A stretch of 64,000 nt of DNA, from the NCBI GenBank assembly GCA_965197895.1, contig OZ240232.1:2389522-2453521 (forward strand), read 5' to 3'. Origin of the DNA: Candidatus Versatilivoraceae bacterium (GTDB taxonomy: Bacteria; Acidobacteriota; Terriglobia; Versatilivoradales; Versatilivoraceae). The notes under the pieces were generated by a model, which worked only from the letters and a program-made list of their open reading frames with translations, did no database searches and was not told where the DNA came from. Below, in pieces: positions 1-14,027 of the stretch (its first letter is position 1; each line of letters starts with the position of its first letter). The position numbers were made by a program, and so were the translations under genes.

Positions 1-396
1 GGCGCTGCATGGCCATCCGGTGCTGGTGGCCGAGACCTTCGTCGACCCCAGCCGCTTTGCCGGCACCTGCTACCGGGCTTCGAACTGGCTGGGACTGGGG
101 AGGACCCGCGGCGATCGACGCCAGTCCGGCGGCAGCCCGCGCTGGCACCCTCACGGTCAACCCAAGGAGATCTTCGTGTACCCCCTGCAACCGGATGCCT
201 GTCAGCAACTGAGTCGACTGGATGACGCCCCCGATTGGTCCAGCCAGGACGACTCGAAGCCACTGGGCGAGGACCGCCTGCGCTCTCTGTTCGAGTACCT
301 GCGCACGGTTCAGGAGTTCCGCAAGCCGCGGGGCATGCGCTACCCGCTGGCCACCCTGCTGGCGATGGCGGTGGCGGCACGCCTCATCGGCTACCG
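1..396 (+). mobile_element. Remnant of DUF4338 + ISAs1-type transposase element, cut by the window edge
   Basis: ETFVDPSRFAGTCYRASNW (DUF4338 C-terminus) followed by FRKPRGMRYPLATLLAMAV (ISAs1 N-terminus); homologous to the copies at 7806-8447 and 9298-9943. Confidence 0.75.
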
Positions 397-1084
397 TTGC
401 CACGGGCAGGAGTGGTCCTTTTCGCCGGAGCTCGAGGGCATGATCCCATTGGCCGATTCGATCGAGATGTTCGAGAGCGCCTCTCTGTTCAGTTCGGGGG
501 ACGGTTTGGGTTGGAGCAAGGTCAGCGATATTGCCGCCGAGGACAACGACGAGACCGACTTCGATTTCGCCCCGGATGGCCGCATCCTGGCAGTGAGCCG
601 CAAGGGCGCTTCCTCCAAGTTGCATCCGGGAGCCAGGCCGGGGAGTCGGCATGCCATCGCATACCTCGGCCATCCCCCCTATCGGAGCTGGCGGCGACTG
701 CCCCTGGATCGAATGATTCAAGCCCCGGCGGTGCGCTGGGCCAGGGATCGATGGATGGTCGCCGGCCGCTATATCGACGGGGAAACCGAACGGGCGCACC
801 CGCACCACCCGGACTTTCCCCACAAGGGACACCGCTACGGGACGCGCCTGTGGACCCTGGACGATCGGACCGGCGCCCTGACACAGGCGGTAACCCTGCC
901 CAGTTGGGGAGACTGTTCCTATCCGGGCATGATCGAGGAGTCCAATGGCGACTTGCTGGTGGTCTACTATTCTCACTCGATCACCACCGACGGCCATCAG
1001 TACATGGGCGGCGGGCTGTGGCCCGGCAAGATGCCTCCCTGCTCGATTTATCTGGCCCGAGTGGTCCGGGAAGAGATGGGTTAG
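397..1084 (+). pseudogene. C-terminal part of a BNR/sialidase-like protein fused in frame to the IS remnant
   Basis: SSGDGLGWS Asp-box-like motif, NDETDF, GDCSYPG...LLVVYYS; no N-terminus of its own. Confidence 0.5.
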
Positions 1085-1121
1085 AAGGCTGCCGTTACGT
1101 CGTCAGAATCGTCTGTTTGTC

Positions 1122-1871
1122 ATGATCCCCGGTGCATCACTGGTTGTTCTGCTGCTGTCCGGCGTGGCTCTCCCGCCCTCGCCGCCGCCGATCCAAGGTC
1201 CGGCGGGGTGTTTCGAGGCCCCCGAAACCGAGGGAATAACGGTCTTCGGACCCATGCGGGAGAAGGCTCTTGGCTGGGATCGCCTTTTGCTGGGGACCCT
1301 GGTCCGCGGGAGTGCCGGTGAGCAACTGGAACAGTATCGGAAAGAGGAGGGAATCCCGCTTGAGTTCATACTGGGTCAGGAAGGCAGCGGCGCACTCCAA
1401 TCGAATGGCTGGCAGCGGCTGAAACAGGCTGAAACGGCTGGCAGCCTTCAGCCCCATCCCTGCGGAACGTCCGTCCAGGCCTTTGTCAAGGATCTTGGGA
1501 GCCACGACCTGTCCGAATGGCTGCAGCCGGACTGGGTGTTGGAATACAACAGGAAAGGCAAGGTCCTCGCCCGCTGAGATGTCCCCTTGAATGCGCCGGT
1601 TCGGGCGGTCCAGGGGGATTCGGTCTGGGCGAGCTGGGACCCCCAGCCGCTCTGTTCCGATCAGAGCCTGGAACTGAAGATCTATCTGGTGATCGGGACC
1701 GATGGAAGTCTCAGGGCCGCCTCTCGCCCCGGGCTCATCTCGGAGGGACGCAAGATCAAATGCCCCAGGAGCCCCGATATCCCGCATTCGGAGTTCCTGA
1801 TCTGCGAGTCCATGCGAGACCTCAAAACCCGCAAAACCCGCAGATTGGCCTACCAGTTGCCCTGCGACTGA
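1122..1871 (+). pseudogene. Exported hypothetical protein with one in-frame TGA (1575-1577)
   Basis: Signal-peptide-like start MIPGASLVVLLLSG; the ORFs ending at 1577 and starting at 1587 are in the same frame. Confidence 0.45.
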
Positions 1872-1987
1872 AACCCGCCTCAGTCGAAGACAGCTCCCCG
1901 GCGATCCTTCGAACGGCCCCGCAAAGAAGTTGGCTTTCCGCAGCATTCCGGCCGGCGGAGGGTACCATCGAACGGTAAGGAATCGCC

Positions 1988-2452
1988 GTGAGCCATCCGG
2001 ATTTGTCCACTGCCGACCCTTTCATGGAGATGGCCTTGCGCCTGGCCCGAAAGGCCTTCTCGCTGGAGGAGGTTCCGGTGGGGGCTGTAGTGGTGGTGGA
2101 GGGCAAAGTGGTGGGCCGGGGCTACAACCAGAGCCTCACCCGATCGGATCCGACGGCCCACGCCGAGATCCTGGCCCTGCGGCAGGCTGCCAAAAGGGTG
2201 GGGAATTACCGTTTGACTTCGGCAACGATTTATTGCACCTTGGAACCCTGTGCCATGTGTGCCGGCAGCCTGGTCTGGGCTCGCGTCCAACGTCTGGTCT
2301 ATGGCGCCAAAGACCCCAAGGCCGGCGCCGTCGACTCCCATCTCAGGCTGTTTGAATCGGAATCGGTCAACCACCGGGTAGAGGTGGTGTCGGGGGTCGG
2401 GGAAGCCCAGGCGGTGAAGCTGCTGCAGGAGTTCTTTCGGCTTCGGCGCTAG
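1988..2452 (+). CDS. tadA: tRNA-specific adenosine deaminase
   Basis: [22 protein letters not shown] motifs; adjacent to tRNA-Ser. Confidence 0.95.
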
Positions 2453-2489
2453 CCCCGTCCTCGAAATCGGGGACACTGGCCGAACACGC

Positions 2490-2583
2490 GGAGAGGTACC
2501 GAAGTGGTCATAACGGGGCCGCCTCGAAAGCGGTTAGGGGGTTAGTCGCTCCCACGCGGGTTCGAATCCCGCCCTCTCCGCCA
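2490..2583 (+). tRNA. tRNA-Ser(CGA)
   Basis: GGAGAGG/CCTCTCC acceptor stem, anticodon arm GCCGC-CTCGAAA-GCGGT, long variable arm, GGTTCGAATCC T-arm, CCA end. Confidence 0.95.
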
Positions 2584-2884
2584 CGCACTTTTATAAGCTA
2601 TTGATTGTTAAGGGAGTTATAGGAAGACAGGGAAAGCGGTTATCAATTTAGAGCCTACTTGCTGACATCAGCCCTCCGAATCCATCGATCTCGTCAGCGC
2701 CGCAGTCTTCCCTGGCTTCATGGATCTTTAAAGATGCCCCACAACTGCCCCTAAACTCGCCTCCTCCGGGGCACATAGTGGGTTAGGGGGGAAGGTTCGA
2801 TGCAACATTCCGTTTTTGTGTGAACCGACCGACAAAACTCATGGCACTAAAGAATGTTCCCTGCACAACCTGAGACCACGGTTT

Positions 2885-3679
2885 TCAATCAGTCGATATC
2901 AAATCGCCAAGATCCAGAGTCTGAAAGAACTTTCTCTTCATGCCAATAAACGGTGCAGCGGTTGTTCGCGAGGTGATTGCTCGAATATCTCTGGCCGCCC
3001 GCTGAAGGTCTCTTCGCGAAACACCTGCTTCTTGCGCTTCAAACATTTTCCACGCAATTGTTCGCAACGGCCTGAGAGCTTCCCATCTTTCCTTCGCCAG
3101 GCTGGGTCTATTCAGACCGACAAGCTTGACGGTCTTCATTCCTCGTTCTGCATTCTCTCCTACGCCGTAAATCAACACGCTCCCAGCCTCGGCAATCCAA
3201 TCGAAACCAATAGTCCCCTCAATGTGGTCTTCGGCTGGATCCAATAGGCAAGCATCCTCTTCATCCAAGCTATCATCGGGGCTTGTTGCCCGACTACCGC
3301 GTACTGGAAAATGTGTCTTCTTGTGCCCTTCGTTGCACGTCTTGCAAGCGAAGAACAAGTTAGCCCACACGTAGGCCAGCCACCAGTAGCCTGGACTAGG
3401 TGGCGATTTTTCAGCTACTTTTGTCTTGGGTCGAAAATGCTCGATGTCGGATTCTCGACCGGCATCCCTAAGGCGCTCACAGTAACAACACCGCCCATTG
3501 TGCATTTTCGAGAGTTTCTTCCTGACATCTGGTTTGGACCAAAGAGGCCTAAAGTCTGTCGAACGTGGCGGGTCTCCAGCCGCGACTTTTGACGCTACAA
3601 AATCTTCCGCGTTTCGCCGCTGTGTAGACTCCGGATGCAGAATACTCGGAACGTTATCTTCTCTAATCAGACGAAGCAT
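2885..3679 (-). CDS. HNH endonuclease, Septu PtuB / retron-effector (TIGR02646-like) type
   Basis: CCYCE...DIEHFRPK...YWWLAYVWANLFFACKTCN; the start MLRLIRE overlaps the ATPase stop. Confidence 0.85.
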   Translation of the reverse strand: MLRLIREDNVPSILHPESTQRRNAEDFVASKVAAGDPPRSTDFRPLWSKPDVRKKLSKMHNGRCCYCERLRDAGRESDIEHFRPKTKVAEKSPPSPGYWWLAYVWANLFFACKTCNEGHKKTHFPVRGSRATSPDDSLDEEDACLLDPAEDHIEGTIGFDWIAEAGSVLIYGVGENAERGMKTVKLVGLNRPSLAKERWEALRPLRTIAWKMFEAQEAGVSRRDLQRAARDIRAITSRTTAAPFIGMKRKFFQTLDLGDLISTD

Positions 3680-4898
3680 CGGGCTTCTCGCGCTGTCCAA
3701 TTAACTCATTTAGTTTGGCATCAAGTTCTCTAGCGATGCGTGTCTCATTGGCGGATGCTGCGTGCATGGGAGACACTTCGCGAAGGTGCTCCATGGCTCG
3801 TTTGAACTTGGGAGACCTCCTTGAACGAGGACCGGAATAGGCAGCCTCAACAGCATTTAGCGTTTTCTCCAGAGTCACAGGTCTGGGAGGAGTGTCAAAG
3901 GCAGACGATTCAAGAATTTGATCGTATGTCGAGCCAGAAATTACGGGCAGTTCCTCATTAACGACGCGACGTGTTGAGCTCATACGCAGTACATGCACCT
4001 TGCCGATCCTGATACCTCGGGACTTCTCCTCATAAATGCCCGCCGCAGGCAGTGCTGAGTGGGAGGTTGCAATAAACTGAATTCGGGGAAAGTGCTTCGA
4101 AAGCAGGCTTAGCACTTGCCGCTGCCAAGTCGGATGCAAATGATTCTCAATTTCGTCGAGGAGGACGATCCCGCTAGGCTCTTTCCGACCACGCAAAAGG
4201 GTCCAACCGATCAGATCCAACATCCAATTCAAGGTTGACCGATGACCATCTGCCAAAGCTCCAAATGTGCCCTCGTCTTCTCTACCATAGCGTACTCTGA
4301 GGCCACTTCTCGACAATCTTACTGCGGTGGGGTTCATCATCAATAGTTCCGACAGGTGTCGCAGTAGCCTCTTCTCTTCTTGCGGATTTCCCATCACCCT
4401 TCGACGCACGACCAACTCTGGGTTTTGCAGTTCCCCACTGTAGTTGAATAGTGAATAGACAGCATCCACTGCAGCATATTCGCTATAGTCGTTAGTTCCG
4501 TGCATTACGCGGGTTGGGCCGTAACCGCACACGAATACGTCACCCCACGGGAAGTCGCTAGACGGCTCTTTATTGAGCCACTCCAGGCTAGGATTATCAG
4601 GCGACTGTTTAACAATCGTTTGTGTCTGAAATTTTTTCTTGCCACTACTCAAATCAATCTCAATTGAGCCTTCAGAATGACCATCCTTGATGAGAGTGCC
4701 GTACATATCTGTAACCAGACCCGAAGCACCTACGCGATCACAAAGGCCGATGGCGATACTCTTAAGAACTGTCGACTTGCCAACTGCGTTGTTTCCGAGT
4801 AATAGCAACGAATCATTGGTTGCGGCACGAGACCCGAGACTGATCTCCAAATCATCAATACAGCGTATATTCTTCAATCGAATGCGTGAGATGTACAT
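3663..4898 (-). CDS. ABC/AAA ATPase, Septu PtuA-like
   Basis: MYISRIRLKNIRCI start, Walker A GNNAVGKS, signature-like LADG, Walker B LLDEIENHLHPTWQ, H-loop ATSHS. Confidence 0.85.
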   Translation of the reverse strand: MYISRIRLKNIRCIDDLEISLGSRAATNDSLLLLGNNAVGKSTVLKSIAIGLCDRVGASGLVTDMYGTLIKDGHSEGSIEIDLSSGKKKFQTQTIVKQSPDNPSLEWLNKEPSSDFPWGDVFVCGYGPTRVMHGTNDYSEYAAVDAVYSLFNYSGELQNPELVVRRRVMGNPQEEKRLLRHLSELLMMNPTAVRLSRSGLRVRYGREDEGTFGALADGHRSTLNWMLDLIGWTLLRGRKEPSGIVLLDEIENHLHPTWQRQVLSLLSKHFPRIQFIATSHSALPAAGIYEEKSRGIRIGKVHVLRMSSTRRVVNEELPVISGSTYDQILESSAFDTPPRPVTLEKTLNAVEAAYSGPRSRRSPKFKRAMEHLREVSPMHAASANETRIARELDAKLNELIGQREKPDASSD

Positions 4899-4909
4899 TG
4901 CTTGCTAGG

Positions 4910-6319
4910 CTAGGGCTCGGGGTTTCGCGACATACCAACGGAAATCGTGATTGCGTCCTCTGTATTCATCACGCTACTGTCCAGATTTCGTGAACCGTGC
5001 TGCGGGTAGGATCCTACATTTGTCTCCTTGAGCGGACGACGAAGGGCGTCGCAGTCAATTCCCCCTCGGAGTGCTGCCAGGATACCGGCGGCCTCGTAGT
5101 AGTTATTGACTCGGTGAAACTGCCCCTTCCCCCAAGGCAGAGCTTCGAGGTCATTGGACATCAAGTTCTTGTTCGCAACGGCGATAACGTGAATGCCTTG
5201 GTGCAGGGCAGCCAGCGTCGGAATCCCTAGACAGCCATCCGGAATGACCAGACACGAGACATCGGAAGCCGTGAAGACATCAGGTGCATTCAATGCCTCA
5301 GAATCTGCGATGATCTGTGGGCTTCTCTGCAATCCCTTCAATGTGCATTGCAGAAACGTTGTTGACACCGCCTCAGCCGCCATCCGTGGATCGACAATTC
5401 CTGGATTCTTGTTTGCGATCTCCCTCGATTCAAGCATCGGAGAATGGGCGGTTGGTACGTCGAACATACTTGACAATGCGTGTGTAAGCATTGCTTCAAC
5501 GCCACCCCAAGGATTGACCATTTCTCCCGCAGAATCGAAATATCCTTGGTGGTATTCAGTCGGGACAGTTACGACTGACGAAAGAGCTACCGCGTCGTAC
5601 TCACCAGCGCGATCTTCAAGGAGTGCGCAAAGCTCCTCCAAATTGTCGATTCGGCCAGCGGCTCGACCCGATGGAGTGTATTCGCTAACAAGGCTTACAG
5701 GAGATTCGAGACACACAATCTCCGAGCAAGACAGTCCGTAGCTGGCCCTGGCACTGTTTACAGAGTTTACAGCTGCATTCACAAAGAACTCATCTTGATG
5801 TGCGTCGATCACAACGAGCACGCGATTCATTCGTACCCGAGATAACCCTACAGTTCCCATAAGGAGTCGCGCCACGACGCTTCCTTCAACGTACCAGGCA
5901 TTGGCCGGCATCTCGTTCAAATCGGATGCGTTAACTACGTTGGGGTGCAAGACCAGTGTGTCCGACACTTCGGCCAACAAGCGAGCTACCGGACCAGCAT
6001 CGCCCGCGTGCCCTCCAAGTTCGGCACCGATACCAGTGGGGATAATGAGAACGACGTTGAACTGCGCAGTAGAAGCCACGCGCCGCCGTCGGAACTCGAA
6101 GATCGAGTTTGAGGGCACATGAGACCCAGCACTCCTGACACTTAGTGTTGCGAATTCACAGTGATAGGCACCAGAATTGGCCGAAGTTACGACGAATCGA
6201 ATCGGAATCCAATCTGGACCGATATGTACACGAAAGTATCGTCGAAAGTGTGCCAGAAGGTTGCTATGGCCGGGTAGAATTGGAATATCGCATTGCTGCT
6301 CCAATACCGACTTCACCAT
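4910..6319 (-). CDS. DUF3326 family protein with N-terminal extension
   Basis: IIPTGIGAELGGHAGDA, LVLHPNVVNAS, YVEG, GGVEAMLTH, AHSP, DPRMAAE motifs; AGGA-like RBS upstream of ATG 6319. Confidence 0.8.
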   Translation of the reverse strand: MVKSVLEQQCDIPILPGHSNLLAHFRRYFRVHIGPDWIPIRFVVTSANSGAYHCEFATLSVRSAGSHVPSNSIFEFRRRRVASTAQFNVVLIIPTGIGAELGGHAGDAGPVARLLAEVSDTLVLHPNVVNASDLNEMPANAWYVEGSVVARLLMGTVGLSRVRMNRVLVVIDAHQDEFFVNAAVNSVNSARASYGLSCSEIVCLESPVSLVSEYTPSGRAAGRIDNLEELCALLEDRAGEYDAVALSSVVTVPTEYHQGYFDSAGEMVNPWGGVEAMLTHALSSMFDVPTAHSPMLESREIANKNPGIVDPRMAAEAVSTTFLQCTLKGLQRSPQIIADSEALNAPDVFTASDVSCLVIPDGCLGIPTLAALHQGIHVIAVANKNLMSNDLEALPWGKGQFHRVNNYYEAAGILAALRGGIDCDALRRPLKETNVGSYPQHGSRNLDSSVMNTEDAITISVGMSRNPEP

Positions 6320-6360
6320 AGTAGGTGTCTTTTCCTTCCTGTTTCCATTGAAACTATCGC

Positions 6361-6741
6361 CTAGTGTCTTACGACAACGGTCGCGTTCCAGTCGCGAGCC
6401 TTGAACCACTTCGCAGTGAAATCGGCAGCTTCGTTAGTATCGAATTTCTTGCATGAGAAGATGTTGACGTACGCCGCTTTCAACAAATCCAAAGTATGGA
6501 TTACTACGGTGCTTGTAAGGATAAATTGGACTGCGCTGGTTCCTTTTGTCTTCGGATGCACCTGTTGATCGGCCTCCGGGATACCAACGTCATCCCAAAA
6601 GTGAAGGTCACAGCGCTCCATGTCAATCAACACGCAGAGACCCTCAAGGTATTCTTGTATGTTATGGCGTGTGAACAGTGACGAATCACAGTCGCGAAGG
6701 TCGAGGATCAACTCCTGCCCGTAGCTCTCAGTGCGCTCCAT
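6361..6741 (-). CDS. S-adenosylmethionine decarboxylase (SpeD class 1b)-like proenzyme
   Basis: YGQELILDLRDC...GTSAVQFILTSTVVIHT...YVNIFSCKKFD; 126 aa; alternative start at 6798. Confidence 0.8.
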   Translation of the reverse strand: MERTESYGQELILDLRDCDSSLFTRHNIQEYLEGLCVLIDMERCDLHFWDDVGIPEADQQVHPKTKGTSAVQFILTSTVVIHTLDLLKAAYVNIFSCKKFDTNEAADFTAKWFKARDWNATVVVRH

Positions 6742-7055
6742 GTTCGTTATCCGCTGCAAAGTATACCAGTTGATTCTCAAACTTTCATCGTCGACCATGG
6801 TGCTGGTCCCGGCAGACCATGGTGCATGCCCCGCTTTGCAGTAGCCGCCACGTGTCATCCGAAGGGGTTGCCAAAGATCTCCTCCCCATGCTGCGAAGGT
6901 TCTTGGTACTCGACAAACAGTTTGCTGGCAACTCACGCGCTGCACACTGAGACGGTGGCTGAGGCGGCTGGACCCGCTGCAGGGCGTGAGCGCATCATCT
7001 ACAGACAAAGGGCGCGCACCACCAGTGCTCAAAGGCCTTCCCGGAAGGATCATTT

Positions 7056-7154
7056 TGGACGGGAGCGACCCCCCGTGGGGGCGGGGCGGCGCTGTTACCA
7101 TAGCGACGGCCCGCGCCCGAACCAGGGCCTCAAACAGGGGGGCGCTCCCGTCCA
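7056..7154. other. Long imperfect stem-loop of about 100 nt
   Basis: TGGACGGGAGCGACCCCCC...GGGGGGCGCTCCCGTCCA outer arms enclosing an inner hairpin. Confidence 0.6.
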
Positions 7155-7325
7155 CCGCCTAGATGCCCCGATCGGCACGGCAGGTGCACCGACAAGCTCG
7201 CAACCGTAGCGAAGCCAGCAGGATAGAGATGAGCCGCCTTGTTACTGAAAAGACCTTTGTTGTGCACACACTCTCCTTTGTCGTTGTGCGCGTCCCGTTT
7301 GGGCACGCAACCTCCTGATCCACGC

Positions 7326-7805
7326 TCAAAATCCCCCTCCGGCAATTCGTGTCGACCCCCAAGTGGCAAAGCCCTCGATCATCGTCTTGTGGCTGCGCTT
7401 CAGAGAGAGCTGTTCCAAATCGACGGCTCGTTTCAGCACCGCTTGCACACCGCCGTACTCCTCCAGCACCGGGATATTCCCTGTCAGGATGGCCTGCTCG
7501 ATTCGGGCAAACTCCTCTCCAGCCAAGGGGTCGTCGTCGCGATCTGCAAGCTCGAAGGTGTCCGCCCATTAGCCCAACACCTTTTCAGCTCGCCGCAGGG
7601 ACCGGTGCTCCCGGGCGACGATCACCACCTCGACCCTTCGGTCCCGCTCCCTCAAGGCTCGCCAGAGGCCACGGTGAGCGGCGCCCCAGGAGCGCAACGC
7701 CGCGGCGGTCTCGTATCCCGGATCGGCGTAGACGAGGACAGCCCGGTCCGGTTCCAATGCGATCGGCAGCTTGAGCCGGAAGTGGTGCCGGGTCTCTCCC
7801 ACTGC
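7326..7805 (-). pseudogene. C-terminal piece of a split mobile-element hypothetical gene
   Basis: AVGETRHHFRLKLPIALEPDRAVLVYADPG... continues the 10226-10322 piece; internal stop at 7569-7571. Confidence 0.65.
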
Positions 7806-8447
7806 CAGGACGATTTTTTGTTGTGTGGTAGCTGTTTCATCTGATTGGAAGATTATTGAGGCTGAACAAATCGTTTCTGATGTGCGATGATCGGTGCCAT
7901 ATTGAGCCTGCGGCGTTTGTCGAGCGACATGCGCCAGCTTCATTGCCACCCGGTGCTGGTGGCCGAGACCTTCGTGGACCCGAGCCGCTTTGGGGGCACC
8001 TGTTACCGGGCTTCGAACTGGCTCTGGCTGGGAAGAACGCGGGGCTACCGGCGCCAGCCCGGCGGCAGCGCCCGCTGGTGCCATCACGGTCAACCCAAGG
8101 AGATCTTCGTGTACCCTCTGCAATCGGATGCCTGCCAGCAACTGAGCCGACTTGACGACGCCCCCGATTGGCAAAGTGAGGGAGAAGGCAAACCGCTCAG
8201 CAGCGACCGGCTGCGCTCTCTGTTCGAGTGCCTGCGCAGGGTGGCAGAGTTCCGCAAGCCGCGGGGCAAGCGCTACCCGCTGGCCACCCTGCTGGCGATG
8301 GCGGTGGCGGCGCATCTGGCTATCGCGGGGTGACCGCCTTTGCCGAGTTCGCCTCCCACCTCACCCAGAAACAGTTGGCCGCCTTACGCGCCTACTACAG
8401 CGGGAAACTGAACCGCTACACGGCCCCGACCGTCACCACCTTCCATT

Positions 8448-8607
8448 GAAAGAACTCCGCGAAACAACGCCCCAGGCGTTGCACCACTTCACCCAAGCCG
8501 ATCAAGTGAACCAGCTTGTCGGGGGCAGCGAAGCGGACCCCGATCTCGGCTTCATGGCGCGGCTGCTGGCGCTGTGCAGCCTGCCCCGCACCAACCCCGG
8601 CAACCAC
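8448..8607 (+). pseudogene. Plasmid RepA (RepA_C / pBBR1-IncW-like) N-terminal fragment
   Basis: HFTQADQVNQLV...DLGFMARLLALCSLPRTNPGN. Confidence 0.55.
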
Positions 8608-8645
8608 TGTACCACCCCTGATTTCCTGGACCGATAAGACACCAC

Positions 8646-9056
8646 CTATTGCTCCGTGGACTGACGTTCCACGTAGCTGAGCGCTGCGCGAGCGAGCAGA
8701 CCAGACCGTGTTTCCCCTTCTCGGGCCGCGGCCTCGTCCACGATCGCCAGAACGCGCGCAGGCACCGTGATGTTGATCCGCTTGGTCTTGCTCGACAGCT
8801 TGGAGATATCGATATTCACGAGGGCCCAAATCCCAGCCTTGTAATCCTCGCTCGCTTGGTGTGTTTCAAGCGATTCCTTCGCAGGTATGGGTTCTCCATC
8901 CATGAGGAGTCCCTCCAGATGGCAGGCGATGGCCTCCTGCGCAGACTCGACGGCTTCCTCAAGCGTATCGCCGGCCGAAAAGCAGCCAGGCAGGTCCGGT
9001 ACGGTAACCCCGTAAACGCTCTCGACATCTTTGTGGATCACAACCGGGTATCGCAT
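8646..9056 (-). CDS. hicB: HicB family antitoxin
   Basis: YGVTVPDLPGCFSAGDTLEEA; C-terminal RHH KRINITVP. Confidence 0.9.
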   Translation of the reverse strand: MRYPVVIHKDVESVYGVTVPDLPGCFSAGDTLEEAVESAQEAIACHLEGLLMDGEPIPAKESLETHQASEDYKAGIWALVNIDISKLSSKTKRINITVPARVLAIVDEAAAREGETRSGLLARAALSYVERQSTEQ

Positions 9057-9057
9057 A

Positions 9058-9252
9058 TCAGCGGTCCTCCCATTTCCAGTTGGCTTGTCGGTAGATGTTG
9101 CGCAGAGTACCGATGGGAATATCCTTGCTTGGGTGCTTCACTGTGACCCGTCCGGTCTTTTCAGAGTGGACGAATTGGTGGTGGCTCCCGCGCACGTTCC
9201 GGAACACCCAACCGTCCCGTTTCAGTCTCCGAATAACATCCGCGCTTCTCAT
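9058..9252 (-). CDS. hicA: HicA family toxin
   Basis: RGSHHQFVH...VTVKHPSKDIPIGTLRNI, directly upstream of hicB. Confidence 0.9.
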   Translation of the reverse strand: MRSADVIRRLKRDGWVFRNVRGSHHQFVHSEKTGRVTVKHPSKDIPIGTLRNIYRQANWKWEDR

Positions 9253-10225
9253 TGTACTTATTATACACACAATCTCACTCTGAGAGCCTCGCCGAGCCAG
9301 GAGGACTTTTTGTTGTGTGGTAGCTGTTTCATCTGATTGGAAGATTATTGAGGCTGAACAAACCGTTTCTGATGTGCGATGATCGGTGCCATATTGAGCC
9401 TGCGGCGTTTGTCGAGCGACATGCGCCAGCTTCATGGCCACCCGGTGCTGGTGTCCGAGACCTTCGTGGATCCGAGCCGCTTTGGGAGCACCTGTTACCG
9501 GGCTTCGAACTGGCTCTGGCTGGGAAGAACGCGGGGCTACCGGCGCCAGCCCGGCGGCAGCGCCCGCTGGCGCCATCACGGTCAACCCAAGGAGATCTTC
9601 GTGTACCCTCTGCAATCGGATGCCTGCCAGCAACTGAGCCGACTTGACGACGCCCCCGATTGGCAAAGTGAGGGAGAAGGCAAACCCTTCAGCAGCGACC
9701 GGCTGCGCTCTCTGTTCGAGTGCCTGCGCACGGTTCGGGAGTTCCGCAAGCTGCGGGGCAAGCGCTACCCGCTGGCCACCCTGCTGGCGATGGCGGTGGC
9801 GGCGCGGCTGGCCGGCTATCGCGGGGTGACCGCCTTTGCCGAGTTCGCCTCCCACCTCACCCAGAAGCAGTTGGCCGCCTTGCGCGCCTACTACAGCCAG
9901 AAACTGAACCGCTACACGGCCCCGACCGTCACCACCTTCCATTCAACAACACACCGCCCTGCGCGCGGTCCTCAACCCCCTGAAGGCCTGAGTCCACACC
10001 CCACCGGCCGGCAAACACCCTGCCCTCGCCACGGGCGCCTTCCCTCCTGCCCGCTCCCTGCCGATCGTCTCGAAATCGCCTCGACAACCCTCCATTCCAC
10101 CCCATCGCCTCCGGCTCAGTGGTGAAAATCCCTGCTGATCGCTCTCCAACCGCCCATCCCAACCTTACAATACGACGGCCCCGTTCAGTTTTGGCCTAGC
10201 AAGCGCCAAACAAAAAATCGCCTTG

Positions 10226-10322
10226 CCCCCACTGCTCCCCGGTACACCCGCAAGCGCAGGTGCCGTCGTTCGATCCCGAGCGCCTCGAAGGCTAGGACCT
10301 TCTCCATCTCGGTCGGGAGCCA
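10226..10322 (-). pseudogene. Middle piece of the split hypothetical gene
   Basis: Minus strand translates WLPTEMEKVLAFEALGIERRHLRLRVYRGAVG and joins the 7326-7805 piece across the target duplication. Confidence 0.65.
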
Positions 10323-10334
10323 GGAGAGAAAACA

Positions 10335-10544
10335 GGGACGTTGTTGAATTACTGGAAATACCGGGCGGGGCGATTCTGAAATGCCTTGGACACGGCCGGA
10401 AGGGCTCGATACCGCGTCGTGTGACGGAACGTGCTGCGAACCAGGGCCGTTGAGCCGGGCTTAACGGAACGTCTACCACTCGTTATCTGTCAACCAAAAC
10501 TCAGAAGCCGGAACAAAGTTTTTCCAGTAATTCAACAACGTCCC
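10335..10544. mobile_element. 210-bp MITE, copy 1
   Basis: 24-bp terminal inverted repeats GGGACGTTGTTGAATTACTGGAAA; apparently identical copy at 13812-14021. Confidence 0.8.
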
Positions 10545-10550
10545 CTTACT

Positions 10551-11186
10551 TGCGCTATGAGCGGCGCAGGGAAGCCATCATCCGGGAGGCGCAACTGGAT
10601 GGGTTCTAAATGCTCCGGACCAGCGAACCGGCCGATCGCCTGCCAACAGCCGCGGTGGTGCGCCGCTACAAGGACCTGACCCGGGGCGAGCGGGCCTTTC
10701 GCTCCCTGAAGACCGTCGACCTGCAAATCCGTCCCATCCGCCATCGGGTGGAGAGTCGGGTCCGGGCTCATCTGTTCCTGTGCCTGCTGGCCTATTACGT
10801 CCAGTGGCATCTGCGGCAGGCCTTGGCCCCGTTGCTGTTCGATGACGAGGAACTGGAAGCGGAACGAGCCCGGCGAGACCCGGTCGTGGCGGCCCAACCG
10901 TCGGCATCAGCCAAACGGAAGAAGGGGAGAGGCCGCACTGAGGAGGGGTTACCGCTGCATAGCCTGGAGACGCTGATGGCGCACCTGGGGACGCGGGCCC
11001 GCCACCAGTGCCACTTGCCCTCGGAGCCGGACGGACCCCGAGTCCAGCGACTGACTGAGCCGACCCCGCTGCAGCAACCGGCCTTCGAGCTGGTCAGGAT
11101 GTTCCCAGGCAGAAACACTCAAGAATCCTGATTTCTCATTGACAATAAAGGGGTTACCTTGTCGGTGCGTCAGGAACTTCGGTTTA
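10551..11186 (+). mobile_element. IS1634-family transposase 3' fragment
   Basis: EAQLDG*...YKDLTRGERAFRSLKTVDLQIRPIRHR...RAHLFLCLLAY. Confidence 0.8.
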
Positions 11187-11243
11187 AATGCAGCGACCCC
11201 AACTGCATCTCATGTGAGCCTTGCTCCTGTCGCACAACCACAG

Positions 11244-11666
11244 CTACGACTCCTCAGCGGAATCTACCTGCAGAACCTTCGTCTGGCTAACCGGATCGGC
11301 ATCCACACGCTCTGTAGTCACGGCATGCACAAGATGCGCGAGTACCGGGCTTGCTTTACCCTTTCGGTCGCACAGAAAGTACGTATGGCCGACCGGCGGA
11401 TCGATGTTGTTGTCGCAGTCCACGGCATAGACGTTCTTCGCAACTCTCGACAGGTCCTCGGGCCCCGTGTGGCCGAGACGGCGAGACACGATCTTATGCC
11501 TCAGATTCGTCACCTTGCTTGTACGAAGGGCCAAGTCGTCGTTCGCGTAATACACCGTCACGTTGCGTGCAGCGTCGGACAGGCATCGACCGCTCCTGTC
11601 GGCTTCCAGCATTTTATTGACAATGTCCGCTGCTGCCAGAAAGATGCGGCAATAATCACGCGCCAT
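11244..11666 (-). pseudogene. DUF900-type alpha/beta hydrolase C-terminal fragment
   Basis: IFLAAADI...VTVYYANDDLALRTS...RRLG...GHTYF; nucleophile-elbow region missing. Confidence 0.6.
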
Positions 11667-11703
11667 CCGCCGTGCGACGGATTACGCGCCCACCGGGTGC
11701 GGT

Positions 11704-13122
11704 TCATGGCCGGAGTCCCGGAGGGCATCGACAGCTGGCACCACCGCCGAATCTCGAAGCCAACGCTTCTAGTCTGTCGCAAGCCACATTGATTTCCTGG
11801 TGTCTCGCCTTGATTTGCTCAGGCGTGGACGAGCTGCCCGTAGCAATCGCACACTGCGCCCCGGCTGCCTGGAGCGCAAATGAACGAACCTGTAGGGTAA
11901 CGCTCGCTGGACACCATGAAAAACCCAAGTTCGCCACACCACCGGGCGGATTCGGATAACCCGGAACCTGGCACGGTCCCCCGCCAGCCGTGCCGCGCGT
12001 GTTGCCACCTGCGGAATTAGGTACAGGTGGTTGGCCGGTTATCACGCTTTCAGACGTCTGCGCTGTCGTTCGACCACGCTCACTCACTCCTTTCGCATTC
12101 TTGCCCTCATCACCCAACCAGATCGTACTGTCGAAAAAGAATGAATGTAACCTTTGTAAGTAACAATTGGCCATCATCATCGATCCAGCGATGAACGGAG
12201 ACATTCCGTAGAGTTCTTGGCGTTGTCGCTTTAGTTTCTCACCAGCATAATAGCCAATATACATTTGAAGAGGCAGCGAAGCCTGGGGTTTACTTGGGCT
12301 AAAAAACTCTTTTAAGTTCTCATCTACTTCCGCCTTCGACAGAAAAGGAATAGTCCCAGGAGTCAGACCAACGACTGGTTCTGCATTAGAGGAAAAAATA
12401 TTCTGCAGTATCCTGTTTAGTCCTTTATTGAAGGCTGCTTCTAAATCAGGGTTTTCATCCAGAAAAGCAGTAATATCTCTACATAACTTGGTGTTGTATC
12501 TGACATTCTCGGTCTTTCTGTCGCCTTCGGGAGTTTCCCGTAATAGCACATCAACCGACCGCGTGGGTACGCATTGACCATTCATCATTTCGAACTCGGT
12601 TCTCGTTGCAATATACGCAAAAAAGCGATCATTAATTATTGGCGACAGATTCAAAGTCTTCCATGCTGGCGATGCCGCCCGCATAGCCTCGATCTCTTCT
12701 TCCAATAAGTTTTGATCTTCAATAATTTCCGAAATGTTCCCGTATATATTCCTCCTAATGATCACTTTCGCGGTTCGGGGTGTTTTAGTCCCCAAGTGGC
12801 CGGATATCAGCTCCTCCCAAGGCGGCGACTTATAGTAGATGACTGTCTCTACTCCATTTTCGTTAAGTCGGGTTTCTTTCGAAAGAACATCATCATCAAC
12901 TTCAATTGATCCATCCTTTCGGAGGCTGAATGGAATGCGGCGAAGGCCATTCTTAACGAACGGGCCGGATCGTCTCAAACGATATCTCGAATTCGCTTCG
13001 CCTTCTTCGGATGGAGGATTGTTAATGAACTCCGCACACTTTGAGTAATCTACTGCTCCAGCGGCAAGCCCTTCCGCTGAAAGGCACAGCGATAGAACGA
13101 GGGCGATCAGGACACCGTACAT
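11704..13122 (-). CDS. Secreted hypothetical protein with Cys-rich C-terminal domain
   Basis: RBS GAGGTAGGA, signal peptide MYGVLIALVLSLCLSAEGLA, 472-aa open frame. Confidence 0.7.
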   Translation of the reverse strand: MYGVLIALVLSLCLSAEGLAAGAVDYSKCAEFINNPPSEEGEANSRYRLRRSGPFVKNGLRRIPFSLRKDGSIEVDDDVLSKETRLNENGVETVIYYKSPPWEELISGHLGTKTPRTAKVIIRRNIYGNISEIIEDQNLLEEEIEAMRAASPAWKTLNLSPIINDRFFAYIATRTEFEMMNGQCVPTRSVDVLLRETPEGDRKTENVRYNTKLCRDITAFLDENPDLEAAFNKGLNRILQNIFSSNAEPVVGLTPGTIPFLSKAEVDENLKEFFSPSKPQASLPLQMYIGYYAGEKLKRQRQELYGMSPFIAGSMMMANCYLQRLHSFFFDSTIWLGDEGKNAKGVSERGRTTAQTSESVITGQPPVPNSAGGNTRGTAGGGPCQVPGYPNPPGGVANLGFSWCPASVTLQVRSFALQAAGAQCAIATGSSSTPEQIKARHQEINVACDRLEALASRFGGGASCRCPPGLRP

Positions 13123-13613
13123 TTTCCTACCTCGTTTCGTGATGGTTCTCATCGAGCTGTTCGCAACGGGCCTTGCGCGAGGCGCGAACCTGATTCTGTG
13201 GTGCATGGTGCATATTACAACGCACGCTTAAACCTGCGCAAGCATCAGGACCATGACCGTGCCCCTCGACCTTCGGTCTGCCCACGGAACCGTCAGAGCG
13301 TGGGATAGTCCTCCCGCGACGGACCAATACGGCGGGATGGACTGAGGGCGTCTTCGTCGAATCGGCGCTGTGCGGAACGGATCAACCGTGCGGTCAGGTC
13401 ACCTTAACCCGTTGTTCCGCTACGTTTTATTGCCGGACTTGACTAAGATAGAATATGTCTTTTGGCCCGGGTCAGGCCACTTCGCCGGAGGTTCTCGGAA
13501 CGGCTCCCACAAGATTGCCCGATATCCTTCGCGAGGGTGAGCGCGTTCCCCGCCGGATAGGGTTCAGATCGCCGCCGCGGCCGCCGCAGACTCACCTGTA
13601 AGCTCAATCAACG

Positions 13614-13799
13614 ATGATTCAAATTCAGCACGTTTCGAAATCTTATGGCCAGGGTCGGACCTATGCCGTTCACCGGGTCGATTTAAAGGTTGCAGCGGGA
13701 GAGCTGTTGGTCCTGCTGGGTGAATCGGGTTGCGGCAAGACGACCCTGCTCAAGATGATCAACCGCCTGGTGGACCCCAGCGGAGGCCGGATTCTGGTG
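13614..13799 (+). pseudogene. ABC transporter ATP-binding subunit (ProV/OpuCA-like), 5' fragment cut at the MITE repeat
   Basis: Walker [18 protein letters not shown] followed by an abrupt break. Confidence 0.75.
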
Positions 13800-13811
13800 G
13801 GAGAGAAAACA

Positions 13812-14021
13812 GGGACGTTGTTGAATTACTGGAAATACCGGGCGGGGCGATTCTGAAATGCCTTGGACACGGCCGGAAGGGCTCGATACCGCGTCGTGTG
13901 ACGGAACGTGCTGCGAACCAGGGCCGTTGAGCCGGGCTTAACGGAACGTCTACCACTCGTTATCTGTCAACCAAAACTCAGAAGCCGGAACAAAGTTTTT
14001 CCAGTAATTCAACAACGTCCC
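13812..14021. mobile_element. 210-bp MITE, copy 2
   Basis: Same sequence, orientation and short flanks as 10335-10544. Confidence 0.8.
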
Positions 14022-14027
14022 CTTACT

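What the first reader, a model, noticed from the sequence alone, without database searches (positions are those of the whole stretch)
2885..6741. Candidate new defence system: AdoMetDC-like + DUF3326 + PtuA-like ATPase + PtuB-like HNH
Seen: four intact co-directional genes with tight spacing (41-bp gap, 11-bp gap, 17-bp overlap), visibly less GC-rich than the flanks, directly after tRNA-Ser and undamaged in an island full of pseudogenes. Known: an ATPase+HNH pair forms Septu and is the effector of Ec78-type retrons, where a reverse transcriptase and msDNA restrain it. Here that upstream slot holds a pyruvoyl decarboxylase-like gene and an enzyme-like DUF3326. Inference: a metabolite (dcSAM or a polyamine derivative) or a modification made by the first two genes gates the nuclease or marks self DNA. 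It might sense SAM loss caused by phage SAM lyases and so guard the neighbouring SAM-dependent type I R-M system. I know of no described system with this composition.
Basis: partly seen in the sequence, partly recalled or inferred. Interest (0 to 1): 0.88.

Follow-up and report, generated by a model that had tools for sequence, protein, structure and literature searches.

The report
Septu operon carrying polyamine-type enzymes
A known two-gene anti-phage nuclease pair (Septu) sits here, and in about twenty other bacteria, in one tight operon with two enzymes that most likely make a polyamine-like small molecule, which points to an undescribed, metabolite-linked form of this defence.

Summary
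Four intact, co-directional minus-strand genes lie at 2885-6741 with exactly the stated spacing, in a low-GC block beside tRNA-Ser. They are an AdoMetDC-like pyruvoyl decarboxylase, a DUF3326 protein, PtuA and PtuB.

The "never co-occur" refutation test fails. PtuA-PtuB plus a decarboxylase plus DUF3326 recurs in 17 of 83 non-viral loci fetched, and in 3 further species genomes, from at least two phyla. The usual order there is PtuA-PtuB-decarboxylase-DUF3326. In 5 linked loci the pyruvoyl enzyme is replaced by an NspC-like PLP decarboxylase.

The linked PtuAs form one clade. The linked DUF3326 proteins keep the family's conserved residues.

A decarboxylase lies beside DUF3326 in 112 of 117 loci, mostly without Septu. 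Other contexts are glutathionylspermidine-synthase-like genes and phage packaging modules. A 2026 preprint ties a DUF3326 protein plus a decarboxylase to a triamine intermediate.

Best reading: a new Septu subtype coupled to a polyamine-type biosynthetic pair. How the product acts on PtuAB is inferred, not shown. The SAM-sensing and R-M-guard idea is not supported. The pair matches no PADLOC 2.0 model and the linkage appears in no paper found.

The parts
6361..6741 (-). Gene A: AdoMetDC-like pyruvoyl-type decarboxylase, 126 aa. Substrate unknown, probably not SAM.
   Evidence: PF02675 at E 8.7e-14. TIGR03330 scores only 26.9 bits against a 75.65 cut-off. In a 19-row alignment, invariant S77, H82 and C97 align to the SES, IHT and FTCG motifs of T. 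maritima AdoMetDC (1vr7/1tlu, E 1.4e-4; the 1tmi entry has A at the Ser position). It is the only PF02675 match in the 5.77-Mb genome.
4910..6319 (-). Gene B: DUF3326 enzyme, 469 aa. A small N-terminal domain is followed by two alpha/beta domains. Proposed amine-condensing or reducing enzyme of a polyamine-type pathway.
   Evidence: PF11805 at E 4.6e-91, the sole copy in the genome. 5195 homologues at E<=1e-5 among 8000 scored candidates. AF2 model: pLDDT 76.2, pTM 0.79. No clear solved-fold match. A decarboxylase lies beside it in 112 of 117 loci. A fusion with a PF00278 decarboxylase domain exists, P0122.
3663..4898 (-). Gene C: PtuA, the ABC-type ATPase of Septu, 411 aa.
   Evidence: PADLOC PtuA at 7.9e-50. 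AAA_21 and AAA_15. G35, G40, K41, T43, D248, E251 and H280 are invariant in 12 linked PtuAs. It falls in the clade of DUF3326-linked PtuAs, SH-like support 99.
2885..3679 (-). Gene D: PtuB, the HNH nuclease of Septu, 264 aa. Overlaps ptuA by 17 bp.
   Evidence: PADLOC PtuB at 1.1e-54, profile positions 1-256 of 261. TIGR02646 at 3.4e-12. C64, C67, H81, N107, C112, C115 and N116 are invariant in 12 linked PtuBs.
6760..6788 (-). Promoter-like site about 19 bp upstream of gene A's ATG. Weak evidence.
   Evidence: It is the only sigma-70-like match in 2500-7400 (9 of 12 positions, TG-extended -10). The count is not above the shuffles, which average 2.8.
2558..7139 (.). Low-GC block that carries the four genes. 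Probably acquired as one piece.
   Evidence: GC is 0.48-0.54 against 0.61-0.67 in the flanks. One run's contig equals exactly this span. No tRNA-derived direct repeat was found at the far end.
2490..2583 (+). tRNA-Ser(CGA) at the edge of the block (context only).
   Evidence: ARAGORN. Rfam tRNA, 55.6 bits.

Best explanation
The locus is a four-gene operon. It joins a Septu effector pair (PtuA ABC-ATPase and PtuB HNH nuclease) to a two-enzyme small-molecule module: a self-processing pyruvoyl decarboxylase of the AdoMetDC fold, and DUF3326.

Elsewhere the decarboxylase-DUF3326 pair is a widespread, self-standing module. It most likely builds a polyamine-type amine, a triamine or a related secondary amine. 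DUF3326 would do the condensing or reducing step, and the decarboxylase would remove a carboxylate before or after it.

In one lineage of Septu this module has become a fixed part of the system. I think the enzymes' product most likely acts on PtuAB or on its nucleic-acid targets as a restraint or cue. Infection would then change the product's level through host shut-off, phage polyamine-handling enzymes, or consumption during DNA packaging, and so release the nuclease.

Shown: gene identities, operon structure, recurrence in two phyla, replacement of the decarboxylase by a non-homologous one, a dedicated PtuA clade, and conserved enzyme residues.

Inferred: the chemistry (by analogy and context), the defence role (from family membership and island context), and the whole link from product to nuclease.
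For: (1) Recurrence.
- PtuA and/or PtuB lie directly upstream of the decarboxylase-DUF3326 pair, on the same strand, in 17 of 83 non-viral loci. Among loci with at least 2.5 kb upstream the figure is 12 of 43.
- In the loci where the decarboxylase ORF was called, PtuB ends from an overlap up to about 58 bp before it.
- The same arrangement occurs in G399 and G318, from a 401-genome sample of the window's phylum.
- It also occurs in G868 and G402, from a 401-genome Planctomycetota sample.
- About 19 distinct loci remain after removing the identical pairs L006/L007 and L066/L069.

(2) Two gene orders exist. The window has DC-DUF3326-PtuA-PtuB and the others have PtuA-PtuB-DC-DUF3326. Two unrelated decarboxylase folds fill the same slot, in 14 distinct pyruvoyl loci and 5 PLP loci.

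(3) Nineteen linked PtuAs plus one stand-alone PtuA (G101) form a clade with SH-like support 99. The clade excludes 17 other PtuA-like ATPases from the same phylum sample.

(4) Of 57 DUF3326 columns that are at least 97% conserved in 100 non-Septu rows, 52 are kept in all 20 Septu-linked rows. The other 5 show single substitutions in 1-5 rows. The decarboxylase keeps the Ser, His and Cys that align to the pyruvoyl-site motifs of solved AdoMetDC. PtuA and PtuB motifs are intact.

(5) Chemistry.
- A decarboxylase lies beside DUF3326 in 112 of 117 loci, and within 400 bp in 108 of those 112.
- The PLP partners are closest to carboxynorspermidine decarboxylase.
- A DUF3326-decarboxylase fusion exists (P0122).
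- Thirteen loci read DUF350-DUF1190-glutathionylspermidine-synthase-like-AdoMetDC-like-DUF3326.
- In the pavettamine preprint (10.64898/2026.06.12.731819, section 7 read), the candidate triamine intermediate N-(5-aminopentyl)pentane-1,5-diamine was detected with pavABC or pavAB but not without pavA or pavB. PavA carries a Lys/Orn-decarboxylase-like domain and PavB is a DUF3326 protein.

(6) Context.
- The window block lies in an island with HicA, type I R-M, an HEC-01A-like ATPase and a transposase.
- G399's copy lies beside GmrSD, HsdR and a Schlafen-AlbA2 protein.
- L016 has an integrase, and L008 an SNF2/PLD helicase.
- All four window genes share the same atypical GC.

(7) Precedent. Retron Ec78 shows that PtuAB can be restrained by an added module (PMC12819146, abstract and passages). 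The same paper's passages say that stand-alone PtuAB nicking falls with rising ATP, so regulation by a small molecule has a precedent.
Against: - Most decarboxylase-DUF3326 pairs have no Septu beside them: 31 of 43 loci with enough upstream sequence, and 0 of 34 viral loci. The pair works on its own.
- Septu is known to work as two genes.
- One member of the linked PtuA clade (G101) has no decarboxylase or DUF3326 nearby.
- The metagenome loci are the 80 most similar of 523, so the frequencies are biased towards relatives of the window's protein.
- The DUF3326 and PtuA trees do not look congruent. The modules may be exchanged rather than co-evolve.
- The outgroup for the PtuA clade is only 17 distant hits from one phylum sample.
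- No structure, ligand or activity is known for DUF3326. Fold searches gave only generic alpha/beta matches.
- No expression data were found.
- Nothing here shows anti-phage activity, or any effect of a product on PtuAB.
- The host has its own polyamine-type genes elsewhere: SpeE-like, a PLP Orn/Arg-decarboxylase-like and a deoxyhypusine-synthase-like gene. That fits an accessory role but does not prove one.
Confidence: 0.6

Rival explanations
1. Two autonomous modules share a transcript without mechanistic coupling. Septu works as usual. The decarboxylase-DUF3326 pair is metabolic cargo, or a separate 'chemical' defence that changes the polyamine pool, and it travels with Septu on mobile islands.
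For: - The pair occurs mostly without Septu, in 31 of 43 evaluable loci.
- It also occurs in plainly metabolic settings: with glutathionylspermidine-synthase-like genes, tRNA synthetases and a K+ channel.
- Septu is self-sufficient in the literature (PMC8565338 passages).
- G101 keeps the same PtuAB clade without the pair.
Against: - The slot directly after PtuB is kept in about 18 distinct loci, with overlapping or short junctions.
- The linkage survives a swap of decarboxylase fold and a reversal of module order.
- The linked PtuAs are one clade.
- Chance island neighbours would not keep strand, order and spacing across two phyla.
Confidence: 0.2
2. The enzymes are protein-level partners of PtuAB and not suppliers of a ligand. 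PtuAB would guard them, or be held by them, and fire when a phage factor inhibits or binds the polyamine enzymes. This is a guard or decoy arrangement like retron RT-msDNA holding PtuAB.
For: - The retron-Septu precedent of a physical restraint (PMC12819146 passages).
- Translational coupling of PtuB and the decarboxylase in several loci, for example L004, L016 and L018.
- Phages encode their own copies of the pair. The pathway therefore matters to phages and could be a target.
Against: - The catalytic residues of both enzymes are fully kept in the linked copies. A pure scaffold would not need that, though a guardee would.
- Two unrelated decarboxylase folds fill the same slot. That fits a shared chemistry more easily than a shared protein interface.
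Confidence: 0.1
3. First reader's version. Gene A is a true SAM decarboxylase. The system senses SAM loss caused by phage SAM lyases, or uses dcSAM, and so guards the neighbouring type I R-M.
For: - Gene A is in Pfam AdoMet_dc and keeps the pyruvoyl-site residues.
- It is the genome's only AdoMet_dc homologue, while a SpeE-like gene exists elsewhere.
- Type I R-M lies 8 kb away, and also near the closest relative's copy, L126.
Against: - NspC-like PLP decarboxylases replace gene A in 5 linked loci and in 31 of 117 loci overall.
- Gene A is far below the SAM-decarboxylase equivalog cut-off.
- AdoMetDC homologues often act on ornithine or arginine (PMC10407285).
- No aminopropyltransferase gene lies in any linked operon seen.
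- R-M lies near only 1 of 20 other linked loci.
Confidence: 0.05
4. The product is attached to nucleic acid as a self-marking or protective modification of DNA or tRNA, and PtuB cuts only unmodified molecules.
For: - Septu and retron-Septu act on DNA and tRNA-Tyr (PMC12819146 passages; PMC13096335 listing abstract).
- In three linked loci an LPG_synthase_C-like aminoacyl-transferase-type gene and a 4-HFC-P-synthase-like gene precede PtuA. That hints at a more elaborate product.
Against: - No transferase, glycosylase or base-modifying gene is a constant part of the operon.
- The pair's other contexts are ordinary polyamine metabolism.
Confidence: 0.05

Closest known systems
Septu type I (PtuA ABC-ATPase + PtuB HNH nuclease)
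   Same: Genes C and D match PADLOC PtuA and PtuB models at 8e-50 and 1e-54. They overlap as an operon pair and keep the ATPase and HNH motifs. They lie in a defence island.
   Different: Two enzyme genes sit in the same operon, and this is conserved in about 19 loci. The linked PtuAs form their own clade. Described Septu has no small-molecule module.
Retron type I-A / Septu type II (Ec78/Eco7: RT + ncRNA/msDNA + PtuAB)
   Same: PtuAB is joined to an extra upstream module, which in Ec78 restrains the effector until infection (PMC12819146, PMC8565338 passages). The window has the same layout, with the module ahead of ptuA-ptuB.
   Different: There is no reverse transcriptase in the block, and no retron RNA in 1-12000. 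The nearest RVT_1 match lies outside the window start and belongs to a multi-copy type. NCBIfam retron PtuA and PtuB equivalogs score 89.7 of 500 and 49.6 of 150 bits. The extra module here is two metabolic enzymes.
PavA/PavB of pavettamine biosynthesis (bioRxiv 10.64898/2026.06.12.731819)
   Same: A DUF3326 protein works with a decarboxylase-type partner. Both were needed for a triamine intermediate (section 7 read). This matches the decarboxylase-DUF3326 pairing seen in 112 of 117 loci.
   Different: PavA is a 1119-aa Rieske + PLP-fold fusion and a JmjC hydroxylase follows. Here the partner is a 126-aa pyruvoyl enzyme with no hydroxylase, and the pair is tied to a nuclease system.
Carboxy(nor)spermidine dehydrogenase/decarboxylase (CASDH/CASDC) and SpeD-derived ODC/ADC + homospermidine synthase clusters
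   Same: These are two-gene routes to a triamine: a condensing or reducing enzyme plus a decarboxylase. The PLP partners of DUF3326 are NspC-like. AdoMetDC homologues that decarboxylate ornithine or arginine cluster with HSS, SpeY or CASDH/CASDC (PMC10407285 passages). Phage clusters of HSS with glutathionylspermidine synthetase are described (PMC9992855 figure legend).
   Different: DUF3326 is unrelated in sequence to CASDH, HSS or SpeY. The match to saccharopine reductase is only Z 5.7, which is generic. The NspC-like partners fall below the equivalog cut-off, at 256-305 of 409 bits.
HEC-07 (Hma-embedded candidate defence protein)
   Same: [quoted passage not shown]
   Different: It is a single protein with thioredoxin-like and RelE-like RNase domains. 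It has no DUF3326 and no PtuAB, and the likeness was reported at fold level only.

Membership tests
Septu (PtuAB) | PtuA: ABC/SMC-type ATPase with Walker A, Walker B and H-loop | tested here: met
   PADLOC PtuA at 7.9e-50. AAA_21, AAA_15 and SMC_N. G35, G40, K41, T43, D248, E251 and H280 are invariant in 12 linked PtuAs.
Septu (PtuAB) | PtuB: HNH nuclease with Cys pairs and catalytic His/Asn | tested here: met
   PADLOC PtuB at 1.1e-54 over the whole length. C64, C67, H81, N107, C112, C115 and N116 are invariant.
Septu (PtuAB) | ptuA directly followed by ptuB in one operon | tested here: met
   17-bp overlap, same strand.
Septu (PtuAB) | Protects against phage; PtuA-PtuB complex with nuclease activity | not testable with these tools
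   Needs cloning, phage challenge and biochemistry.
Retron type I-A (Septu type II) | Reverse transcriptase gene and msr/msd ncRNA next to ptuAB | tested here: not met
   The two upstream genes are AdoMet_dc and DUF3326, with no RVT domain. Only the tRNA matched Rfam above noise in 1-12000. The nearest RVT_1 hit lies outside the window, across the tRNA.
Retron type I-A (Septu type II) | PtuA and PtuB reach the NCBIfam retron-Ec78 equivalog cut-offs | tested here: not met
   NF041760 scores 89.7 of 500 bits and NF041761 scores 49.6 of 150 bits.
AdoMetDC (SpeD/SpeH) pyruvoyl decarboxylases | Pfam AdoMet_dc fold match above the gathering score | tested here: met
   52.2 bits against 25. A profile of 19 relatives finds T. 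maritima and other AdoMetDC structures at E 1.4e-4 to 2.3e-3.
AdoMetDC (SpeD/SpeH) pyruvoyl decarboxylases | Self-cleavage Ser (pyruvoyl precursor) with the following His and the catalytic Cys | tested here: met
   Invariant S77, H82 and C97 align to SES, IHT and FTCG of 1vr7/1tlu. The residue before the Ser is Thr, not Glu. The residue roles are recalled. Processing itself was not tested.
AdoMetDC (SpeD/SpeH) pyruvoyl decarboxylases | True SAM decarboxylase (equivalog score; aminopropyltransferase partner) | tested here: not met
   TIGR03330 scores 26.9 of 75.65 bits. No SpeE-type gene lies in the operon or in any linked locus seen. The slot is filled by NspC-like PLP enzymes in 31 of 117 loci. 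Substrate was not assayed.
DUF3326 (PF11805) / PavB-like | Full-length Pfam match | tested here: met
   E 4.6e-91, profile positions 2-337 of 337.
DUF3326 (PF11805) / PavB-like | Works with a decarboxylase to make a triamine | tested here: inconclusive
   Adjacency in 112 of 117 loci and one fusion protein. The only experimental support is the preprint's PavAB result.
CASDH/CASDC-type carboxy-polyamine route | Decarboxylase is a carboxy(nor)spermidine decarboxylase; condensing enzyme is a saccharopine-dehydrogenase-fold CASDH | tested here: inconclusive
   PLP partners score 256-305 bits on TIGR01047, below the 409 cut-off. DUF3326 against saccharopine reductase gives only Z 5.7, among generic Rossmann-like matches.

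The most novel reading that the evidence does not exclude
This would be a metabolite-gated Septu. The decarboxylase-DUF3326 pair, in some relatives extended by 4-HFC-P-synthase-like and aminoacyl-transferase-like genes, makes a dedicated polyamine-like molecule. That molecule holds the PtuAB ATPase-nuclease in check, or arms it. Infection shifts its level and releases the nuclease. The homologous enzyme pairs that many phages carry next to terminase and portal genes supply the same class of molecule for packaging. They could also act as a counter-defence by keeping PtuAB silent. It would be the first defence system whose sensor or restraint is a polyamine-type metabolite made by its own operon.
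Probability: 0.25. Interest if true: 0.9.

Novelty: new variant of a known kind. Interest (0 to 1): 0.72.

Why it matters
- Septu is one of the most widespread defence systems, and how stand-alone PtuAB is kept silent and then triggered is still debated. A conserved subtype that carries its own small-molecule enzymes gives a direct experimental handle: add or remove the product and watch the nuclease.
- It would extend the known ways of adding a control module to PtuAB beyond the retron.
- The survey also gives the large DUF3326 family a concrete working function, as the partner of a decarboxylase in a polyamine-type pathway. The family has 5195 scored homologues and no described function in Pfam.
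- The survey shows that many uncultured phages carry the pair inside their head and packaging gene block. That bears on how phages obtain polyamines for DNA packaging.

Tried and rejected
- Complex prediction of PtuA (alignment A2) with DUF3326 (alignment A1) gave no verdict: score 0.11 against a mark of 0.32, and the controls were not run. It counts neither way.
- Fold of DUF3326. Foldseek against PDB gave only domain-level lumazine-synthase-like hits and meaningless whole-chain hits. VIA wide gave a best Z of 7.1 (lumazine synthase) and a spread of Rossmann-like or GT-B-like rows at Z 5-6, including saccharopine reductase at Z 5.7. No fold family can be named.
- A sequence profile of DUF3326 against PDB found nothing below E 0.5. 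The single sequence of gene A found nothing.
- The ESM Atlas had no usable hit outside PF11805.
- tblastn against INPHARED phages found no match. The phage copies are known only from IMG/VR contigs.
- Expression: no RNA holder was listed. Only assembled contigs could be laid, so co-transcription is untested.
- Island ends. No second copy of the tRNA 3' end was found in the window with up to 3 mismatches. No direct repeat longer than 9 bp links the two block edges.
- The 611-aa homologue P0007 is an internal duplication and not a fusion.
- No 4-HFC-P-synthase-like or glutathionylspermidine-synthase-like gene lies in the window.
- Literature searches for Septu with polyamine or decarboxylase, polyamine with anti-phage defence, and AdoMetDC with defence islands and HNH found no report of this linkage. 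Subscription-only papers are not in the library. The preprint's Figures S4 and S5 and Table S1 of the HEC preprint could bear on the PavB claim and on embedded gene families.
- The maximum-likelihood tree with the default method did not finish in 300 s. I used FastTree instead, so supports are SH-like only.
- One search turned out to sample the same phylum. It added no loci and showed only that the window's phylum is that of L003's genome (Acidobacteriota by that record's title).

Full report
**What is there.**
The minus strand of 2885-6741 carries four intact genes:
- A, 6361-6741, 126 aa.
- B, 4910-6319, 469 aa.
- C, 3663-4898, 411 aa.
- D, 2885-3679, 264 aa.

- A is a Pfam AdoMet_dc member (E 8.7e-14) and B a full-length DUF3326 (E 4.6e-91).
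- C and D match PADLOC PtuA (7.9e-50) and PtuB (1.1e-54).
- Neither A nor B matches any of the 5027 PADLOC models.

tRNA-Ser(CGA) lies at 2490-2583. GC falls from 0.61-0.67 in both flanks to 0.48-0.54 across all four genes. One public-run contig equals window 2558-7139 exactly, so the block looks like one acquired piece.

The surroundings hold HicA, a type I R-M (HsdM 14676-16706, HsdS 16707-18170, HsdR 21977-24982), an HEC-01A-like ATPase between HsdS and HsdR, and a DDE transposase. This is a defence island.

A and B are the only AdoMet_dc and DUF3326 homologues in the 5.77-Mb genome.

**Do the four genes belong together?**
I collected 117 loci that encode a relative of B:
- 3 from species genomes;
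- the best 80 of 523 from metagenomes;
- 34 from IMG/VR.

tblastn with the window's proteins, and with two PLP decarboxylases found beside DUF3326, gave these counts:
- PtuA and/or PtuB occur in 17 of 83 non-viral loci and in 0 of 34 viral loci.
- Among non-viral loci with at least 2.5 kb upstream of the enzyme pair, 12 of 43 have PtuAB and 31 do not.

In all 17 loci the order is PtuA-PtuB-decarboxylase-DUF3326 on one strand. Where the decarboxylase ORF was called, PtuB ends from an overlap up to about 58 bp before it. The window has the two modules the other way round.

Two pairs of loci are identical copies (L006/L007 and L066/L069).

Independent samples of species genomes add more:
- In 401 genomes of the window's phylum, DUF3326 relatives occur in 6. 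G399 and G318 have PtuA-PtuB-AdoMetDC-like-DUF3326.
- In 401 Planctomycetota genomes they occur in 9. G868 has PtuA-PtuB-PLP decarboxylase-DUF3326.
- G402 (locus L004) has PtuB cut by the contig end. A PtuA lies at the end of another contig of the same assembly.

That makes about 19 distinct linked loci from at least Acidobacteriota and Planctomycetota.

**The decarboxylase slot.**
In 5 linked loci (L004/G402, L018, L021, L027, G868) the 126-aa pyruvoyl enzyme is replaced by a roughly 390-aa PLP enzyme of the Orn/DAP/Arg-decarboxylase fold. Its best NCBIfam match is carboxynorspermidine decarboxylase, at 256-305 bits, below the 409 cut-off. Replacement by an unrelated enzyme in the same position argues that a decarboxylation step, and so a chemistry, is what the system needs.

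**A dedicated PtuA lineage.**
Searching the window's PtuA in the 401-genome phylum sample gave:
- three strong hits: G399 at 7e-56, G101 at 2e-55 and G318 at 2e-51;
- fourteen genomes with only weak hits, at 1e-18 or worse.

In a FastTree of 37 rows, the 19 linked PtuAs plus G101 form one clade with SH-like support 99, apart from the 17 weak hits. I left out L006 and L069 as duplicates, and L004 because it has no PtuA on its contig.

G101 has PtuAB without the enzyme pair, beside CHAT and DUF7379 genes, so the link can be lost. The DUF3326 tree places the linked rows in several clades on a poorly resolved backbone. It does not look congruent with the PtuA tree, so the modules may be exchanged among such systems.

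**Are the parts functional?**
- Of 57 DUF3326 columns at least 97% conserved in 100 non-Septu rows (phage rows included), 52 are kept in all 20 linked rows. The other 5 show single substitutions in 1-5 rows, none of them the window.
- In gene A's family, S77, H82 and C97 are invariant. They align to the Ser (Ala in the 1tmi entry), His and Cys of the SES, IHT and FTCG motifs of T. maritima AdoMetDC. The residue before the Ser is Thr rather than Glu.
- PtuA keeps its Walker and H-loop residues, and PtuB its Cys pairs, His and Asn.

**What the enzyme pair does.**
- A decarboxylase gene lies beside DUF3326 in 112 of 117 loci: 81 AdoMetDC-like and 31 NspC-like. It is within 400 bp in 108 of the 112. 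The 5 exceptions are three cut or short loci and two viral ones.
- A fusion of DUF3326 with a PF00278 decarboxylase domain exists (P0122). So do a fusion behind an adenylation domain and a carrier domain (P0123), and one with a methyltransferase and a SET domain (P0121).
- Thirteen loci read DUF350-DUF1190-glutathionylspermidine-synthase-like-AdoMetDC-like-DUF3326. Others sit with LysRS, SerRS and a polysaccharide-deacetylase-like gene, or with a K+ channel.
- The only experimental lead is a 2026 preprint on pavettamine (section 7 read). The candidate intermediate N-(5-aminopentyl)pentane-1,5-diamine was detected with pavABC or pavAB, but not without pavA or pavB. PavA has Rieske, alanine-racemase-like and Lys/Orn-decarboxylase-like domains. 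PavB is a DUF3326 protein.
- AdoMetDC homologues that decarboxylate ornithine or arginine, and that cluster with homospermidine synthase, SpeY or CASDH/CASDC, are documented (PMC10407285, abstract and passages).

Together these make a polyamine-type product the best guess. DUF3326 would be the condensing or reducing enzyme.

Its AF2 model has pLDDT 76.2. It shows a small beta-alpha-beta-beta N-terminal domain and two alpha/beta domains, but fold searches name no family.

The host has a SpeE-like, a PLP Orn/Arg-decarboxylase-like and a deoxyhypusine-synthase-like gene elsewhere, so the island pair looks accessory.

**Phage copies.**
Twenty-eight of the 34 IMG/VR rows form one clade with 96 SH-like support. 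Their DUF3326 matches start near residue 87 of the window protein, so they lack the N-terminal domain. AdoMetDC-like hits lie in 32 of the 34 viral loci.

PHROGs shows that these are phages and that the pair sits in the head and packaging block:
- L099 reads terminase large subunit, AdoMetDC-like, DUF3326, portal.
- L095 reads portal, AdoMetDC-like, DUF3326.

That polyamines are packed with phage DNA is recalled knowledge and comes from no call. It would fit this position.

**How it may work.**
Known Septu variants are PtuAB alone and PtuAB with a retron reverse transcriptase (PMC8565338 passages).
- In retron Ec78 the RT-msDNA module restrains PtuAB until infection.
- The same paper says nicking by stand-alone PtuAB falls with rising ATP (PMC12819146, abstract and passages).

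There is no RT gene or retron RNA in the block here.

By analogy I propose that the product of genes A and B restrains or cues PtuAB, or protects its nucleic-acid targets. Every step from product to nuclease is inference. The rivals are listed separately: mere co-transcription of two autonomous modules, protein-level guarding, SAM sensing, and nucleic-acid marking.

The SAM-sensing and R-M-guard idea is weakened in three ways:
- the PLP replacements;
- the low SAM-decarboxylase equivalog score, 26.9 of 75.65 bits;
- R-M genes lying near only 1 of 20 other linked loci.

That one locus, L126, is the closest relative. It lies among GmrSD, HsdR, YgjP-like and Schlafen-AlbA2 genes.

**Extra genes in some relatives.**
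- A 4-HFC-P-synthase-like gene (PF04476, 9e-38) directly precedes PtuA in 8 rows, which are 6 distinct loci.
- In L030, L066 and L069 an LPG_synthase_C-like gene precedes that.
- In G318 a phosphoglycerate-mutase-like metalloenzyme gene and an ATP-cone/AAA_18 gene lie upstream of PtuA.
- None matches PADLOC, and the window has none of them.

They hint that the product may be more elaborate than a simple polyamine in some systems.

**Verdict.**
The composition is real, recurrent and under selection. It fits a new subtype of a known system (Septu) joined to a polyamine-type enzyme pair whose own function is only now emerging. I found no description of this linkage. The mechanism is open and directly testable.

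Noticed in passing
L086-L119 (IMG/VR), e.g. L099:2660-7028, L095:4401-7820, L108, L114: Many uncultured phages carry an AdoMetDC-like gene plus a short DUF3326 that lacks the first ~86 residues. The pair sits inside the head and packaging block, between or beside terminase and portal genes. None of these loci has PtuAB.
   Followed up: partly
L020, L037, L045, L047, L048, L054, L055, L060, L065, L071, L074, L075, L079: A recurrent cluster reads DUF350-DUF1190-glutathionylspermidine-synthase-like (PF03738)-AdoMetDC-like-DUF3326. This is a polyamine-metabolism context for the enzyme pair.
   Followed up: partly
L006-L008, L011, L030, L066, L069, L072 (upstream of PtuA); L030/L066/L069 also one gene further up: A 4-HFC-P-synthase-like gene (PF04476) directly precedes PtuA in 8 linked rows. 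In three of them an LPG_synthase_C-like (PF09924) gene precedes that. Neither matches PADLOC.
   Followed up: partly
L127:11863-14254 (G318): Upstream of PtuA lie a phosphoglycerate-mutase-like metalloenzyme gene and an ATP-cone + AAA_18 gene. They may be further small-molecule enzymes of that system.
   Followed up: no
P0121, P0122, P0123: Fused forms of DUF3326 exist: with a PF00278 decarboxylase domain (831 aa), behind AMP-binding + PP-binding domains (1106 aa), and with a methyltransferase + SET domain (873 aa).
   Followed up: no
window 18499-20615: An HEC-01A-like ABC ATPase (PADLOC 2.1e-78; 284 aa against a 363-position profile, so perhaps truncated) and a 376-aa ORF without matches lie between HsdS and HsdR. 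This looks like a system embedded in the type I R-M.
   Followed up: partly
window 8442-8708: Summed contig depth in four public runs is 10 to 100 times that of neighbouring bins (7,800-36,000), with many loose ends at 8446-8605. This is a highly repeated or widely shared element.
   Followed up: no
genome G000:C1:2388419-2389039 (about 0.5 kb before the window start) and 13 other places: The genome has 14 RVT_1 matches. Nine are near-identical 456-aa frames, a multi-copy retroelement that I take (recalled likeness, not tested) to be group II intron-like. A shorter copy lies just outside the window, across the tRNA from the operon.
   Followed up: no
window 9058-9942 (-): A HicA toxin domain occupies only residues 234-288 of a 294-aa ORF, so the real hicA gene is probably much shorter. 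I did not look for a HicB partner.
   Followed up: no
L126 (G399) 3463-15671: The closest relative's operon lies in a defence island with GmrSD, HsdR, a YgjP-like metallopeptidase and a Schlafen-AlbA2 protein directly upstream of PtuA.
   Followed up: partly
L173-L177 (Planctomycetota genomes G989, G1196, G1069, G1114, G935): Distant DUF3326 homologues (33-37% identity, mostly aligned from about residue 86) have no decarboxylase hit nearby. Three matches span an in-frame stop in the search output. They are probably a different, housekeeping subfamily.
   Followed up: no
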